A stretch of 21,349 bases of DNA from Candidatus Jordarchaeia archaeon (GCA_029856435.1 JAHQXB010000175.1:1-21349), one strand, 5' to 3'. Positions 2,639 through 6,844 are shown, counted from the stretch's first letter. A program made the numbers and translations. Notes: generated by a model not told the origin, from the letters alone.

Positions 2639-2758
2639 TAAACTCCTACCCTTTCTATTCTCTTGAATTTGGGAAACTATTTAGGAACAGGGCAATAGAT
2701 AGACTTATGAATTGTCACTATAATGTTTTAAAAGTTATTTGTTGAGAGGATTTTGAAG

Positions 2759-4588
2759 ATGGGTAAAGAAACTTATGCTCCTCCAACTTTTTTAAAGTGG
2801 GCTAGCGGTGATGTGGCTAAGGATTATCCGGGAAAAACATTTATGATTAGCTGCAACGAGGCGATTGCCAGAGGTGCTATTGAAGCTGGTGTTAAGGTGG
2901 TGGCAGCTTATCCCGGTTCGCCCCTCCAATACACGATTGAGAGCTTAGCTATGGCAGCAAAAATCTATCCCTCAATGCATGTGGAATGGTCATCTAACGA
3001 AAAAGTTGCATATGATGTGGCCCTTGGGGCAGCTATGGCTGGTGTGCGGGCCTTGTCACCCATGAAACAGTTGGGTATGAATGTTGTCATAGATTCTCTG
3101 GTTCAGGGAGCTAATCTCGGCCCCTCAGGTTTGGTGTTGGCGGTAGGCGATGATCCGGGCGCTTTAGAAACTGAGAATGAAATGGATACCCGCTATTTGG
3201 CAAGGTACGCTGAAGTTCCGGTCATCGAGCCCACCTCAATACAGGAGGTTAAGGACTATACTTTTCAGGCCTTTGAGCTTTCAGAAAAGATTAAACTCCC
3301 AGTTGTGGTTAGAATTACGACTGGGCTGGCTTATCAGAGAGCTCCAGTCACTTTTGGAGAAATTCGCCACGATATAAGGGAGAGGGAAACAAGCTTTGAT
3401 AAGAATCGCCGCTGGCTTCTAGGAGACGCCTTCCCCTGGCCTATGAAGCCTTTCGGTGCAAAGCACATGAGGTTTCACGACGAATTGCCAGTGAGGGAGT
3501 GGGAGAATACTGTGGGTTCACTGCCTAAGGCTAGGTACACTGAAAAAGTTGTGGATGAGTTGCCTTGGAACACGCTGGTTTTTGGTAGGGAGGCCCGGTT
3601 TGGGGTGATTGCAGTTGGTGAGTGTTACCAAGAGGCAATGGAAGCCGTAAAGTTTCTGGGTGTAAAGGAAAAGGTGGCAGTTCTGAAACTGGTTACTTCT
3701 TATCCCCTGCCCCAAAGTAAGGTTGCTGAAATATTGGAGAAAACGGAGAAGGTTTTAGTGGTGGAGCAGATCGAACCCTTCGTGGAAACAGAGGTGCGTG
3801 CTTTCTCGGCAAACATGGACAGGCATGCCAAGATTTTTGGCAAACTTACTGGTGACATTCCCATCTGCAACGAGATTACTCGAAATATGATTGGACGGGC
3901 ATTGGGCAAAATGCTAAATGTAGCCTTCCTGCCTCGGGAGGAAGAGGAGAGAATCGAGAGGGGCAAAAATCTGCTGTACAGGGAACTGTTCTTTATTAAT
4001 GTTCCCAGATTCTGTCCCGGATGCCCGGAACTAGCCGCTGGGTTTGCCCTGAAGACTGTTTGCAATGAGCTTTACGGAGAGAACGTTACCTTCATTGGAG
4101 ATGTGGGTTGCTACGGTATGTTGGCTGTACCTCCACTTAACGCTTCACATGCAAACCTCAGCATGGGTTCTGGAATCAGTATGGCTAGCGGAATCTACCA
4201 CGCTGGTTCAAAAGATAAAATAATCGCGTACATTGGGGATAGTACATTTTTCCACTCGGGAATGTCTGCACTGGTTAATGCGGTTTATAACAAAGCTAAC
4301 TTGCTGCTCTACGTCCTTGATAACAGGACAACGGGTAATACTGGGCATCAGCCCCACCCCGGGGCCTTTGGTATTACCGCAACTAGGGAACCCACTAAGA
4401 TTTTGGACATTGAGGAGATAGTGAAATCCTTCCAAGTAGACTACGTTAAGGTGGTAGACCCATACAACTTTGAGGAAACCACCAAAACCCTCAGAGAAGC
4501 CTTAGAGGTTGAGGGTGTGGCTGTGGTAATAGCTAGGCAAACCTGCGCGCTTCTGGCACAAAGAATAAAGGGGTTGATTGCTAAATGA
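2759..4588 (+). CDS. iorA: Indolepyruvate-type 2-oxoacid:ferredoxin oxidoreductase alpha subunit (TPP), lacking the usual C-terminal ferredoxin domain
   Basis: NEAIARGAIEAG, YPGSP, EWSSNEKVA, CPGCP, GDVGCY and TPP motif GDSTFFHSG...LDN; ends ARQTCALL...IAK. ATG 2759 follows GAGAGGA (the track starts at TTG 2753). Confidence 0.92.
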   Translation: MGKETYAPPTFLKWASGDVAKDYPGKTFMISCNEAIARGAIEAGVKVVAAYPGSPLQYTIESLAMAAKIYPSMHVEWSSNEKVAYDVALGAAMAGVRALSPMKQLGMNVVIDSLVQGANLGPSGLVLAVGDDPGALETENEMDTRYLARYAEVPVIEPTSIQEVKDYTFQAFELSEKIKLPVVVRITTGLAYQRAPVTFGEIRHDIRERETSFDKNRRWLLGDAFPWPMKPFGAKHMRFHDELPVREWENTVGSLPKARYTEKVVDELPWNTLVFGREARFGVIAVGECYQEAMEAVKFLGVKEKVAVLKLVTSYPLPQSKVAEILEKTEKVLVVEQIEPFVETEVRAFSANMDRHAKIFGKLTGDIPICNEITRNMIGRALGKMLNVAFLPREEEERIERGKNLLYRELFFINVPRFCPGCPELAAGFALKTVCNELYGENVTFIGDVGCYGMLAVPPLNASHANLSMGSGISMASGIYHAGSKDKIIAYIGDSTFFHSGMSALVNAVYNKANLLLYVLDNRTTGNTGHQPHPGAFGITATREPTKILDIEEIVKSFQVDYVKVVDPYNFEETTKTLREALEVEGVAVVIARQTCALLAQRIKGLIAK

Positions 4589-6204
4589 GTTTGAAACCTA
4601 TAGGTAACCAGTGGAAAATAAACAGAGAGTTATGTCAGGCCTGGACTGGAAGCAGGGCTCCCTGCCATGCAGCCTGCCCTGCAGACATAGACATTCCAAA
4701 ATATGTAACTTTAATATCCATGGGAAAATTTAGGGAGGCCCTAGAAATTATTGTGGAGAGGATGCCCTTCCCCGCCATCTGTGGACGAATTTGTCATCAT
4801 CCTTGCGAAACATATTGCACAAGAAGCGACATAGATCAACCCATAGCAGTAAGGGATTTGAAACGCTTCCTAGCCGATTTTTACTCACACGAGTTGCGGC
4901 GGGAAAAAATTGAGCCAAAAAGAGAAGAGAAGGTTGCAATAGTGGGGGCGGGCCCCGCCGGACTAACAGCGGCCTATGATTTGCTAAAGCGGGGCTATAG
5001 GGTAACAGTTTTCGAAGCTTCAAAAAAGCCCGGAGGAATGATAACAGGCTGCCTCCCCGATTACCGAATTCCCAGGGAAGTCGCCGAAAAAGAAATCAAT
5101 CAGATTCTTGAAACCGGAATAGAGCTGAAAACTGACACTCCCATATACGACATTGATAATCTCTGGCGTGAGGGGTTCAAAGCTATACTAGTGGCTATAG
5201 GTGCCCAGAATCCTCGAAGAATTAAACTGGAAGGAATGGAGAGTAAAGGAGTCATTTACGGACTGCCATTCCTGAGAGAAGTAAAGATGGGAAAAAGCGT
5301 AGAGCTGGGGGAACGAGTAATTGTCGTCGGTGGGGGGAATGTGGCAGTGGACTGTGCTCAATGCGCGGTTAGACTGGGAGCAAAAGAGGTTTCCATGGTC
5401 TGCTTGGAATCACGTGAAGAGATGCCAGCCCACGAATGGCAGTTAGAAGAAGCAGTAGAAGAGGGAGTCAAAATATGTCCCTCATTGGGACCCAAAAGAA
5501 TCCTCACAAAGGAAGGCAAAGTGGTAGGTTTAGAAACCATAGTTTGTAGCTGTGTATTTGACTCCCAAGGAAATTTTTCGCCACAATTCGTTGAAGGCAC
5601 AGAAACAGTCATGGAAGCCGACACCATAATCATAGCCATCGGTCAGGAACCAGACTTTAAAGGATTTGAAAAATTAGACAAAACGCCACTCAAAACCTTC
5701 AAAGTTAACCCCGAGACCTTGGAAACCAACATACTGGGAGTTTTTGCAGCTGGCGACTGTGTTAATGGTCCTGCAAGCTTTGTGGAGGCGGTGCAAACCG
5801 GACACATGGCTGCAGAGAGCATAGACCGCTACCTAAAGGGCGAAAACTTAGTTGAGGGAAGAAAAGAGGTCAGAAACAAGCTTCCCGAAGTGGTAGTGGT
5901 TCCCCGGGGCATAGTTAGGAAAAAGAGGGTATCCATGCCCGTTTTAGGTCCAGAGGAGAGGAAGAAAAATTTTGAGGAGATACTGTTGGGATATTCGGAG
6001 CAGTTAGCGGTTATGGAGGCTAAACGCTGTTTAAACTGTACCATATGTGGCTACTGTATTGAAAACTTTGGGTGCATAGCATTGATTTGGGCAGACAACC
6101 CCAATCTCCAGTATCGGTCTCCCGAAATAGATTTGGCTTTGTGCGTGGGCTGCGGTGTCTGTCCCCAGATATGTCCCCATAAGGCAATAGAGGAAATTAG
6201 GTGA
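4585..6204 (+). CDS. GltD/NfnB-like FAD/NAD(P) oxidoreductase fused with an IorA-type 2x[4Fe-4S] ferredoxin domain
   Basis: APCHAACP and CGRICHHPCETYC Fe-S motifs, IVGAGPAGLTAA (FAD), VVGGGNVAVD (NAD(P)), GDCVNGP, EAKRCLNC, then CTICGYCIENFGC and CVGCGVCPQICP. ATGA overlap with the iorA stop. Confidence 0.9.
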   Translation: MSLKPIGNQWKINRELCQAWTGSRAPCHAACPADIDIPKYVTLISMGKFREALEIIVERMPFPAICGRICHHPCETYCTRSDIDQPIAVRDLKRFLADFYSHELRREKIEPKREEKVAIVGAGPAGLTAAYDLLKRGYRVTVFEASKKPGGMITGCLPDYRIPREVAEKEINQILETGIELKTDTPIYDIDNLWREGFKAILVAIGAQNPRRIKLEGMESKGVIYGLPFLREVKMGKSVELGERVIVVGGGNVAVDCAQCAVRLGAKEVSMVCLESREEMPAHEWQLEEAVEEGVKICPSLGPKRILTKEGKVVGLETIVCSCVFDSQGNFSPQFVEGTETVMEADTIIIAIGQEPDFKGFEKLDKTPLKTFKVNPETLETNILGVFAAGDCVNGPASFVEAVQTGHMAAESIDRYLKGENLVEGRKEVRNKLPEVVVVPRGIVRKKRVSMPVLGPEERKKNFEEILLGYSEQLAVMEAKRCLNCTICGYCIENFGCIALIWADNPNLQYRSPEIDLALCVGCGVCPQICPHKAIEEIR

Positions 6205-6220
6205 AGGAGGATTCTAATCT

Positions 6221-6844
6221 ATGGGTGAAGAGTTGAACCTCATAATTTGCGGATTGTCTGGTCAGGGAATCATTCTTACTGAAAGGTTGCTCGTGATAGC
6301 CCTCTCCCAGATGGGAAAAAATGTTCTATCTGCGGATGTTCCCCCCTGGACACATAGGAACGCTATCACTTACTGTTACATTAGGACTGGCGAGGAACTC
6401 TACTCTCCCAGGATTCCGGAGGGAGGAGCAAACCTGATAGTTTCCTTTGAACCACTTGTGGCGCTCCAAGTAGCCTCAATTTATGGAAGCCGGGAAACCC
6501 TCGTAATCACTAATGATTATCCTATTGAAACCCGGGGATTATCTCGCGACGGGCTAAGAGATATGTCTGGACGGCTGGCACACAAGTACCCCACAATGGA
6601 GCAAATATTAGGCTACCTGAAAAATTTGGAGATTACAAAAGTAAAGACCATTAGTGGCACTGATGTCTCTCTACGAGAAACGGGAAGTGCAAGGGCGTTA
6701 AACATGGTAATGTTGGGAGCAGCATACGCCACAAAAATGATTCCCGTAAAACAAGAAGTTCTAGAGGAAGAAATCATAAAGAATACTCCCCCAGGAACCG
6801 GCGAAATAAACTTGAGAGCCTTCAGAGCAGGAGCGAACCTCTAA
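6221..6844 (+). CDS. iorB: Indolepyruvate-type oxidoreductase beta subunit (POR gamma-like)
   Basis: ICGLSGQGII, ANLIVSFEPL, LNMVMLGAA and INLRAFRAG motifs; GGAGG upstream; position in the operon. Confidence 0.88.
   Translation: MGEELNLIICGLSGQGIILTERLLVIALSQMGKNVLSADVPPWTHRNAITYCYIRTGEELYSPRIPEGGANLIVSFEPLVALQVASIYGSRETLVITNDYPIETRGLSRDGLRDMSGRLAHKYPTMEQILGYLKNLEITKVKTISGTDVSLRETGSARALNMVMLGAAYATKMIPVKQEVLEEEIIKNTPPGTGEINLRAFRAGANL

What the first reader, a model, noticed from the sequence alone, without database searches (positions are those of the whole stretch)
4585..6204. IorA ferredoxin domain split off and interrupted by a GltD/NfnB-like module: a possible NAD(P)-coupled three-subunit IOR
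Seen: IorA stops at the linker where its 2x[4Fe-4S] domain normally begins. The next gene starts with that domain's first strand (WKINRELC), continues through a full GltD/NfnB-like module (APC..ACP to EAKRCLNC), and ends with the rest of an IorA-type ferredoxin (CTICGYCIENFGC...CVGCGVCPQICP). It lies between iorA and iorB. Known: similar insertions of GltD-like modules into ferredoxin domains occur in HdrA-like proteins. Inference: electrons from 2-oxoacid decarboxylation may go straight to a pyridine nucleotide, or be split between it and ferredoxin. VCLESR replaces the YRR seen in NADP-using GltD/NfnB, hinting at NAD(H).
Basis: partly seen in the sequence, partly recalled or inferred. Interest (0 to 1): 0.8.

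Follow-up and report, generated by a model that had tools for sequence, protein, structure and literature searches.

The report
IOR with built-in NAD(H) flavoprotein subunit
An Asgard archaeon carries a three-gene 2-oxoacid (indolepyruvate-type) oxidoreductase whose iron-sulfur exit domain sits on a separate protein and is split open by an inserted flavin/NAD(H) module, so the enzyme probably hands its electrons to NAD+ instead of ferredoxin; the design is widespread in uncultured microbes but untested.

Summary
iorA (2759-4588) ends just before the point where the 2x[4Fe-4S] domain begins in canonical IorA. The next gene (4585-6204, ATGA overlap) encodes one ferredoxin strand plus one Cys, then a GltD/NfnB-type Fe-S flavoprotein module, then the rest of an IorA-type ferredoxin. 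iorB follows. The module is circularly permuted relative to NfnB: its 'N-terminal arm' (RCLxC) lies after the FAD domain. Natural variants settle the anatomy. Colinear single-chain IorA-module-Fd proteins exist. So does an 80-aa module-less ferredoxin in the same slot that keeps the CxxW signature. Cys counts on the two sides of the insert always sum to six. The NADP-binding YRR is replaced by C-L-E, which resembles NAD-specific DsrL-1. The most likely function is a 2-oxoacid:NAD+ oxidoreductase that does not bifurcate electrons. This is inferred, not shown. Among 301 sampled Asgard genomes the operon occurs only in the window's genus, and its nearest relative is bacterial (IorA 81% identical), which suggests lateral transfer. 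IOR-linked modules are not one clade, so the module behaves as a cassette. This scan has already flagged the same enzyme class in at least 16 other genomes. I found no experimental study of it, only a remark in the DsrL literature that such genes were set aside. Verdict: a new variant of a known kind.

The parts
2759..4588 (+). iorA: TPP-binding alpha subunit of an IOR-like 2-oxoacid oxidoreductase, without the usual C-terminal 2x[4Fe-4S] domain. The four proximal-cluster Cys (C421, C424, C453, C598, numbered from the TTG at 2753) are retained.
   Evidence: PF01855 and PF02775; TIGR03336 positions 4-539 of 595, 492 bits, below the 651 cut-off. The four Cys are invariant in 67 IorA-like sequences. 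Start at ATG 2759 inferred from the 609-aa orthologues and the sequence.
4585..4588 (+). ATGA overlap of the iorA stop with the start of the flavoprotein gene (translational coupling)
4585..6204 (+). Middle gene, 539 aa: ferredoxin domain interrupted by a GltD/NfnB-type Fe-S flavoprotein module; proposed electron-exit subunit
4606..4644 (+). N-side piece of the ferredoxin domain (residues 8-20: strand WKINREL, C17, W20). C17 is proposed as the first ligand of ferredoxin cluster 1.
   Evidence: Colinear with the VDxxKC strand of canonical and fused IorA. C17 is invariant and W20 nearly so. The module-less ferredoxin P0387 keeps C-V-S-W.
4654..4887 (+). Fe-S domain of the GltD module (Fer4_20). 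C27 and C78 are assigned to the distal cluster; C31, C70, C74 and K93 to the proximal cluster.
   Evidence: Alignment to NfnB 4ylf_B, with ligand assignments taken from PMC7596348 and PMC10482914
4930..5844 (+). FAD and NAD(P) Rossmann domains (GAGPAG 121-126, GGGNVA 249-254)
   Evidence: PF07992, residues 116-406
5401..5409 (+). C273-L274-E275 at the position of the NADP-phosphate-binding Y-R-R of NfnB
   Evidence: PMC7596348
5920..6042 (+). Circularly permuted 'N-terminal arm' of the GltD module (residues 446-486), ending in RC482-L-N-C485 = NfnB C39/C42, the distal-cluster ligands
   Evidence: HMMER aligns residues 446-486 to residues 3-43 of NfnB (4ylf_B) and 6-47 of P. furiosus NfnL (5jca_L)
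6040..6204 (+). C-side of the IorA-type ferredoxin domain: C488-x2-C491-x5-C497 (the rest of motif 1) and C520-x2-C523-x2-C526-x3-C530-P (motif 2)
   Evidence: 42% identical to the ferredoxin domain of a canonical IorA in the same genome; 61.5 bits against a canonical IorA-Fd profile
6221..6844 (+). iorB: beta (gamma-domain-type) subunit
   Evidence: PF01558; TIGR03334 110 bits, below the 206 cut-off

Best explanation
The three genes encode one enzyme, an indolepyruvate-type 2-oxoacid oxidoreductase. Its electron-exit ferredoxin domain (domain V of the OFOR superfamily) has moved from IorA to a separate subunit. That domain has been opened between the first and second Cys of its first cluster motif by a circularly permuted GltD/NfnB-type module carrying two [4Fe-4S] clusters, FAD and an NAD(P) site. 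Proposed path: 2-oxoacid + CoA react at TPP on IorA/IorB. Electrons then pass through the proximal [4Fe-4S] of IorA, the two clusters of the split ferredoxin domain, the distal and proximal clusters of the module, and FAD, which reduces NAD+ by hydride transfer. The anatomy, its conservation and the cluster-ligand homology are shown. Physical assembly, direction of flow, NAD over NADP, and the substrate are inferred. The operon was probably acquired by Jordarchaeia from bacteria.
For: Partnership of the three genes:
- The same gene order with overlapping genes is conserved from 92% down to about 40-46% identity of the middle protein, in archaeal and bacterial contigs.
- Colinear single-chain IorA-module-Fd proteins of 1108-1192 aa exist.
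- The partner IorA lacks its own ferredoxin domain and belongs to a well-supported clade (SH-aLRT 99) of IorAs, 33 of 39 of which lack it.

Insertion topology:
- NfnB residues 3-43 align to residues 446-486 of the middle protein, and NfnB 46-462 to residues 26-420. C482/C485 therefore equal NfnB C39/C42.
- The Cys counts before the module and after it, within the first motif, sum to 6 in all 23 full-length family members: 1+5 with CxxW, 2+4 with CxxC.
- An 80-aa ferredoxin in the same iorA-x-iorB slot has C-VSW-x4-C-x2-C-x5-C, which is the middle protein minus the module.
- The ferredoxin is IorA-type.
- Co-folding residues 1-34 with 478-539 and two 4Fe-4S clusters gave only weak support. The score was 0.38 and the best control 0.02. 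The partner pLDDT was at least 59 and the runs agreed in at least 78% of contacts. The mark was reached by 58 of 80 solved complexes and 2 of 110 mismatched pairs, but at 0.60 or under by only 7 of those 80 and by both mismatches that passed.

Cofactor choice:
- C-L-E replaces Y-R-R.
- In DsrL, which has the same architecture, YRR enzymes use only NADP(H) and non-YRR enzymes prefer or require NAD(H) (PMC7596348).

Non-bifurcating character:
- K93 aligns with StnC K170, not NfnB E117 (PMC10482914).
- No NfnA-like gene lies in the operon.
Against: - There is no biochemical or structural datum for any member of the family.
- IorA, IorB and the middle protein all score below the curated cut-offs of their nearest NCBIfam models, so the substrate is unknown.
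- The AlphaFold2 model has pLDDT below 50 for residues 1-31 and 425-539, so it gives no structural support for the docking or the topology.
- GltD modules run in either direction in known enzymes.
- The ferredoxin-domain clusters might still reduce free ferredoxin.
- R161, the counterpart of the Arg thought to matter for bifurcation in NfnB, is retained in the window's protein.
- Relatives exist with no ferredoxin partner at all (Rhodomicrobium lacus iorA-iorB). A ferredoxin-less IorAB can evidently function, and the middle subunit might be an accessory rather than the obligatory exit.
Confidence: 0.7

Rival explanations
1. The complex is an electron-bifurcating or confurcating IOR. The FAD of the NfnB-like module splits or merges electron pairs, so that 2-oxoacid oxidation is coupled to both NAD(P)+ and ferredoxin. 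Alternatively, NAD(P)H plus a second donor drives reductive carboxylation.
For: The module is homologous to NfnB, whose FAD is a bifurcating flavin (PMC8097209). R161, the counterpart of NfnL R201, is present in the window's protein. Some IOR-linked relatives (type B: P0288, P0296, P0308) carry the full NfnB-like set of Glu at the proximal cluster, Arg and YRR.
Against: No NfnA-like [2Fe-2S]/FAD partner, and no second electron path, is encoded in the operon. The proximal-cluster ligand is Lys, as in StnC, whose GltD flavin is reported not to bifurcate (PMC10482914). R161 is not conserved across the family, where M, D, V or I occur.
Confidence: 0.1
2. The middle protein feeds electrons inward. 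It would act as an NAD(P)H-dependent reductase that lets the enzyme run as a 2-oxoacid synthase (acyl-CoA + CO2 to 2-oxoacid) for amino-acid biosynthesis.
For: GltD, DPD and DsrL-2 all pass electrons from NAD(P)H into Fe-S chains (PMC8097209, PMC7596348). OFORs are reversible in principle.
Against: From established thermodynamics, NAD(P)H at about -320 mV is a poor donor for a reaction near -500 mV without bifurcation or another driving force. The NAD-type (non-YRR) site favours an acceptor role, following the argument made for DsrL-1 (PMC7596348). Bacterial relatives sit among CoA ligases, TRAP transporters, acyl-CoA dehydrogenases and TetR/IclR regulators, which are catabolic contexts.
Confidence: 0.08
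3. The middle gene is an independent NAD(P)H:ferredoxin-type oxidoreductase that merely neighbours iorA and iorB, or the split is a frameshift artefact of a fused gene.
For: GltD modules occur in many unrelated architectures. Fused IorA-module proteins exist, so a sequencing frameshift was conceivable.
Against: Gene order is conserved across domains of life, covalent fusions exist, and loss of the ferredoxin domain from the partner IorA is correlated with the arrangement. The ferredoxin halves are IorA-type. The identical 4-nt overlap occurs in at least five independent assemblies, and other relatives have separate genes with an intergenic gap.
Confidence: 0.03

Closest known systems
Canonical indolepyruvate:ferredoxin oxidoreductase IorAB (TIGR03336/TIGR03334; the Pyrococcus furiosus enzyme of Mai and Adams 1994, cited in PMC5109826)
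   Same: TPP alpha subunit with POR_N and TPP_enzyme_C domains, four invariant proximal-cluster Cys, a PF01558 beta subunit, and a ferredoxin domain with the IorA-specific C-x2-C-x2-C-x5-C ... C-x2-C-x2-C-x3-CP pattern.
   Different: The ferredoxin domain is not on IorA. It lies on a separate protein and is interrupted by a module of about 465 residues. The predicted acceptor is NAD+ rather than free ferredoxin. All subunits score below the curated cut-offs.
DsrL, the NAD(P)H:acceptor oxidoreductase partner of DsrAB (PMC7596348)
   Same: A GltD/NfnB-like body with two [4Fe-4S] clusters, FAD and an NAD(P) site, then a linker and a C-terminal 2x[4Fe-4S] ferredoxin domain that serves a partner enzyme. 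YRR versus non-YRR decides NADP versus NAD. The DsrL authors noted DsrL-like genes next to OFOR genes and excluded them from their analysis.
   Different: The partner here is an OFOR, not sulfite reductase. The ferredoxin is IorA-derived and split by the module. No direct sequence comparison with a DsrL was possible, because no DsrL sequence was at hand.
StnC and NfnABC-type NfnA (8oh5_C, 9n5u_A, 9bov_A): a GltD module inserted into a NuoG-like protein (PMC10482914)
   Same: These are the best solved-structure matches (E 1e-89 to 1e-109). They share the permuted module ending in EAxRCLxC, the Lys at the proximal cluster, and the use of the module as an insertion cassette. The StnC flavin is reported not to bifurcate.
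   Different: The host is a NuoG/FdhF-like protein rather than an IorA ferredoxin domain. Those modules carry YRR (NADPH).
NfnB / GltD / the dihydropyrimidine dehydrogenase N-terminal domain (4ylf_B, 5jca_L, 1gt8; PMC8097209)
   Same: Homologous Fe-S, FAD and NAD(P) module, with the cluster ligands conserved.
   Different: In those proteins the arm carrying C39/C42 is N-terminal; here it follows the FAD domain. Glu117 is replaced by Lys, and YRR by CLE. There is no NfnA partner.
Other NAD(P)-linked 2-oxoacid oxidoreductases: phenylglyoxylate:NAD+ oxidoreductase PadEFGHI (Hirsch et al. 1998, cited in PMC5109826) and pyruvate:NADP+ oxidoreductase of Euglena and Cryptosporidium (Rotte et al. 2001, cited in PMC13768988)
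   Same: The idea is the same: an OFOR core wired to a flavoprotein so that a pyridine nucleotide is reduced rather than ferredoxin.
   Different: The flavoprotein parts and the way they are joined differ: a separate extra subunit in Pad, and a C-terminal fusion in PNO. Details of their subunits are from my memory and were not tested here. None has a module inside the ferredoxin domain.

Membership tests
IorA (TIGR03336, indolepyruvate ferredoxin oxidoreductase alpha) | Whole-protein score above the curated cut-off (650.9 bits) | tested here: not met
   492.2 bits, covering profile positions 4-539 of 595
IorA (TIGR03336) | TPP-binding domains and four Cys for the proximal [4Fe-4S] cluster | tested here: met
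   PF01855 and PF02775. C421, C424, C453 and C598 are invariant in 67 sequences.
IorA (TIGR03336) | C-terminal 2x[4Fe-4S] ferredoxin domain on the same polypeptide | tested here: not met
   The protein ends 13 residues after C598. Four paralogues in the same genome have the domain. Here it is supplied by the next gene.
IorB (TIGR03334) | PF01558 domain, score above the cut-off (205.8 bits), gene linked to iorA | tested here: inconclusive
   PF01558 E 1.4e-21 and operon linkage are met. TIGR03334 scores 110.5 bits, below the cut-off.
IOR function | Arylpyruvate substrate; ferredoxin as acceptor | not testable with these tools
   Requires enzyme assays
GltD/NfnB-like Fe-S flavoprotein module | Fer4_20 domain with ligands for two [4Fe-4S] clusters, plus an adrenodoxin-reductase-like FAD/NAD(P) domain | tested here: met
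   PF14691 E 1.6e-24 and PF07992 E 2.9e-34. E 1e-75 to NfnB 4ylf_B with the ligands aligned.
GltD/NfnB-like Fe-S flavoprotein module | N-terminal position of the arm carrying the first two distal-cluster Cys | tested here: not met
   The arm lies at residues 446-486, after the FAD domain, which is a circular permutation as in StnC and 9bov_A
NfnB (bifurcating) | Glu ligand of the proximal cluster, YRR NADPH site, NfnA partner | tested here: not met
   K93, C-L-E, and no NfnA-like gene in the operon
NF009410 (PRK12771, NAD(P)-binding protein) | Score above the curated cut-off (516 bits) | tested here: not met
   469.6 bits, covering profile positions 35-561 of 566. This is the nearest curated model.
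DsrL | N-terminal two-cluster domain, FAD/NAD(P) domains, linker, C-terminal two-cluster ferredoxin | tested here: inconclusive
   The same order of parts is seen in the sequence. No DsrL sequence was available for a direct comparison.
DsrL | Occurs in an organism with dsrAB and is not linked to OFOR genes (criteria of PMC7596348) | tested here: not met
   The gene lies between iorA and iorB

The most novel reading that the evidence does not exclude
The complex is a flavin-based electron-bifurcating or confurcating 2-oxoacid oxidoreductase. Its NfnB-like FAD would couple oxidative decarboxylation to two acceptors of different potential (NAD+ and ferredoxin), or let NADH plus a second donor drive 2-oxoacid synthesis. 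That would be a new class of bifurcating enzyme in an Asgard archaeon.
Probability: 0.08. Interest if true: 0.85.

Novelty: new variant of a known kind. Interest (0 to 1): 0.6.

Why it matters
If the reading is right, a whole and widely distributed branch of the 2-oxoacid:ferredoxin oxidoreductases does not make reduced ferredoxin. It makes NADH, or in its YRR members NADPH. That would change redox and energy budgets in metabolic reconstructions of anaerobes, including Asgard archaea, where every IOR is currently counted as a ferredoxin source. The family is also a clean natural example of how redox enzymes are rewired. A ready-made Fe-S flavoprotein cassette is dropped into the loop between two cluster-binding cysteines of a ferredoxin domain. 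The same gene slot is occupied in different relatives by a plain small ferredoxin, the interrupted ferredoxin or nothing, or the ferredoxin (plain or interrupted) is fused to IorA. This gives direct targets for experiment and for enzyme engineering.

Tried and rejected
1. AlphaFold2 of the middle protein with a 7-sequence alignment gave pLDDT below 50 for residues 1-31 and 425-539. It was unusable for the topology question and was not sent to fold search.

2. The local hit of TIGR03336 on the middle gene's C-terminus was only 22.9 bits and ranked below a dozen ordinary ferredoxins of the genome. This seemed to argue against an IorA origin. The alignment covered only the second cluster motif, and a dedicated profile of canonical IorA ferredoxin domains reversed the picture.

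3. I considered that the N-terminal C-x-x-W is a decayed copy of the GltD N-terminal RCLxC. I rejected this because NfnB's N-terminal arm aligns to residues 446-486 instead, and because the module-less ferredoxin P0387 keeps C-V-S-W.

4. A frameshifted fusion was rejected.

5. I considered a single origin of all IOR-linked modules. The AU test rejects it: delta lnL 275, p 6e-74.

6. The sigma-70 promoter and terminator scan is uninformative for an archaeon.

7. Seven literature searches found no paper that joins IOR or OFOR with GltD, NfnB or DsrL, apart from the exclusion remark in PMC7596348.

Full report
**What is in the window**

Three co-directional genes fill 2753-6844.
- The first gene, most likely starting at ATG 2759, has the POR_N and TPP_enzyme_C domains. 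It matches the IorA model TIGR03336 over positions 4-539 of 595 only, at 492 bits against a cut-off of 651.
- The same genome holds four other IorA genes that match positions 2-595. Each continues after the last conserved Cys through a short linker into a C-x2-C-x2-C-x5-C-P-A ... C-x2-C-x2-C-x3-C ferredoxin domain.
- The window's IorA stops 13 residues after that Cys.
- Its four Cys for the proximal cluster (C421, C424, C453, C598) are invariant in 67 IorA-like sequences.
- The stop overlaps the next start (ATGA).
- The third gene is a PF01558 IorB.
- By its closest database relatives the organism is a Jordarchaeia/Freyarchaeia (Asgard) archaeon.

**The middle protein (539 aa)**

- It has Fer4_20 (residues 24-101) and Pyr_redox_2 (116-406). 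Its nearest curated model is NF009410, at 470 bits against a cut-off of 516.
- Its best solved relatives are 9bov_A, NfnA of NfnABC (9n5u_A), StnC (8oh5_C) and NfnB (4ylf_B).
- HMMER aligns it to NfnB in two pieces. Residues 26-420 match NfnB 46-462, and residues 446-486 match NfnB 3-43.
- The module is therefore circularly permuted. The arm that in NfnB precedes everything, and that carries Cys39 and Cys42, here follows the FAD domain and ends in R-C482-L-N-C485.
- With the published ligand assignments for NfnB (PMC7596348), the distal cluster is held by C482, C485, C27 and C78. The proximal cluster is held by C31, C70, C74 and K93.
- K93 is the counterpart of NfnB Glu117 and of StnC Lys170. 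The StnC flavin is reported not to bifurcate (PMC10482914).

**How the ferredoxin domain is split**

After C485 come C488-x2-C491-x5-C497 and a complete second motif. Before the module there is only the strand WKINREL, then C17 and W20. C17 is invariant and W20 nearly so in 15 family members. Four lines of evidence say that C17 is the first ligand of the IorA-type motif 1 and that the module sits in the C1-C2 loop.

1. Single-chain proteins of 1161-1192 aa (P0242, P0243, P0244) run colinearly through the IorA core, the linker, Q-V-D-R-E-K-C-L-S-W, the module and the ferredoxin. The strand plus Cys occupies the place of the M-V-D-x-x-x-C strand of canonical IorA.
2. In all 23 full-length family members, the Cys before the module and the Cys after it within motif 1 sum to six. 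That is one plus five where the N-side reads CxxW, and two plus four where it reads CxxC (P0288, P0308), with the C3-x5-C4 spacing kept.
3. In a related operon the slot between iorA and iorB holds an 80-aa ferredoxin (P0387) reading C-VSW-KNGR-C-x2-C-x5-C followed by motif 2. This is the middle protein without the module, with exactly four plus four Cys.
4. A profile of 76 canonical IorA ferredoxin domains scores the window's tail at 61.5 bits. IOR-linked tails take the top 14 of 186 ranks, and other module-associated ferredoxins have a median of 12.8 bits.

A co-fold of residues 1-34 with 478-539 and two clusters gave only weak support:
- The score was 0.38 and the best control 0.02.
- The partner pLDDT was at least 59, and the runs agreed in at least 78% of contacts.
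- The mark was reached by 58 of 80 solved complexes and 2 of 110 mismatched pairs. At 0.60 or under it was reached by only 7 of those 80 and by both mismatches that passed.

**Partnership with IorAB**

- The order iorA, middle gene, iorB recurs in other Jordarchaeia/Freyarchaeia (92% identity). It also occurs in a Deltaproteobacteria contig seen in two assemblies (IorA 81%, middle protein 62%, IorB 67%).
- It recurs in three more distant metagenomic contigs whose middle proteins are about 40-46% identical. There it sits among CoA ligases, TRAP transporters and regulators.
- In an IorA tree, the ferredoxin-less and type-A fused forms make one well-supported clade (SH-aLRT 99). The type-B fused protein P0308 groups with canonical IorAs, but on a long branch, so that placement is tentative.
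- Within the clade the ferredoxin takes five states: fused plain ferredoxin, separate 80-aa ferredoxin, separate interrupted ferredoxin, fused interrupted ferredoxin, and none (Rhodomicrobium lacus).

**The module as a cassette**

- The same permuted module, always ending in EAxRCLxC, is embedded in HdrA-like proteins of about 1500 aa, NuoG-like proteins of about 840 aa, proteins of about 700 aa carrying PF02662 (the MvhD-type domain), and other hosts.
- A tree of the modules does not unite the IOR-linked ones. The AU test rejects their monophyly (delta lnL 275, p 6e-74). The window's module is nearest to modules of HdrA-like proteins, which agrees with 53% identity to those against 46% to the IOR-linked P0029.
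- This points to repeated insertion or to module replacement. Which of the two is not resolved.

**Cofactor**

- NfnB Y310-R311-R312, which binds the 2'-phosphate of NADPH, aligns with C273-L274-E275.
- In DsrL, a protein built from the same parts in the same order, YRR enzymes use only NADP(H). Enzymes with other residues at these positions prefer or require NAD(H) (PMC7596348).
- Within the IOR-linked family both classes occur. C-[LIV]-E is found in the window's clade and most type A members. Y-R-R is found in P0248, P0291, P0321, P0388 and type B. Type B also has Glu at the proximal-cluster position.

**Distribution**

- Among 301 sampled Asgard genomes, a full-length orthologue was found only in the window's genus, in 4 of 5 other genomes. 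A closed genome of that genus gave no match at the E 1e-100 threshold.
- The seven non-orthologous Asgard loci inspected had no IorA or IorB nearby, and the four read through are HdrA-like proteins with the module.
- Together with the bacterial nearest relatives, this favours acquisition from bacteria. That is an inference.

**What is known**

- I found no study of an OFOR with a GltD/NfnB module.
- A 2021 review of GltD-like enzymes lists glutamate synthase, DPD, Nfn and AegA only.
- The DsrL survey states that DsrL-like genes linked to OFOR genes were excluded.
- NAD(P)-linked OFORs of other construction are known (PadEFGHI, PNO).
- Earlier agents of this scan reported the same class, fused or split, in at least 16 other genomes, including another Asgard genome.

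**Verdict**

This is a real, conserved, uncharacterised variant of IOR. It is most likely a non-bifurcating 2-oxoacid:NAD+ oxidoreductase.

Noticed in passing
L112:5032-5274 (metagenome contig, iorA-fd-iorB): An 80-aa stand-alone ferredoxin occupies the slot between a ferredoxin-less iorA and iorB. It keeps the C-V-S-W signature of the interrupted ferredoxins but has no flavoprotein module. It is either the ancestral host of the insertion or a product of module loss.
   Followed up: partly
L096:6001-8483 (Rhodomicrobium lacus, RZNF01000012.1): A cultured alphaproteobacterium has a ferredoxin-less IorA directly followed by IorB, with no ferredoxin gene between them, then an AMP-binding CoA ligase. 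The electron exit of this two-subunit, one-cluster form is unexplained.
   Followed up: no
L105-L111 (other Asgard genomes) and L017-L042: HdrA-like proteins of 1000-1500 aa carry the same permuted GltD module inserted between the two cluster motifs of their ferredoxin domain. In the phylum sample, 139 of 301 Asgard genomes had a module match at E 1e-100 or better; of the seven non-orthologous loci inspected, the four read through were of this type.
   Followed up: partly
P0288, P0296, P0308 (type B IOR-linked proteins): A second kind of IOR-linked insertion lies after the second Cys of the motif (N-side CxxC). It carries the full NfnB-like set (Glu at the proximal cluster, Arg, YRR), and its IorA core groups with canonical IorAs. 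This looks like an independent insertion, and these proteins are the better candidates for NADPH use or bifurcation.
   Followed up: partly
window 2753-2761: The longest iorA frame starts at TTG 2753. ATG 2759, with GAGAGG upstream, gives the 609-aa length of all close orthologues and is the likelier start.
   Followed up: partly
G038 (same genus, one contig, 100% complete): A closed genome of the window's genus gave no match to the middle protein at E 1e-100, so the operon is variably present within the genus.
   Followed up: no
L114:1-7879 (Deltaproteobacteria contig WFSG01000041.1): In the nearest bacterial relative, the operon follows a glycyl-radical enzyme, two CoA-transferase subunits, an MmgE/PrpD protein and an acyl-CoA dehydrogenase. 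This may hint at the substrate class.
   Followed up: no
G000, whole genome: The middle gene is the only strong GltD/NfnB-type match in this 3.5-Mb genome. The next best hit to NF009410 scores 80 bits, so the organism seems to lack a separate Nfn or glutamate-synthase small subunit.
   Followed up: no
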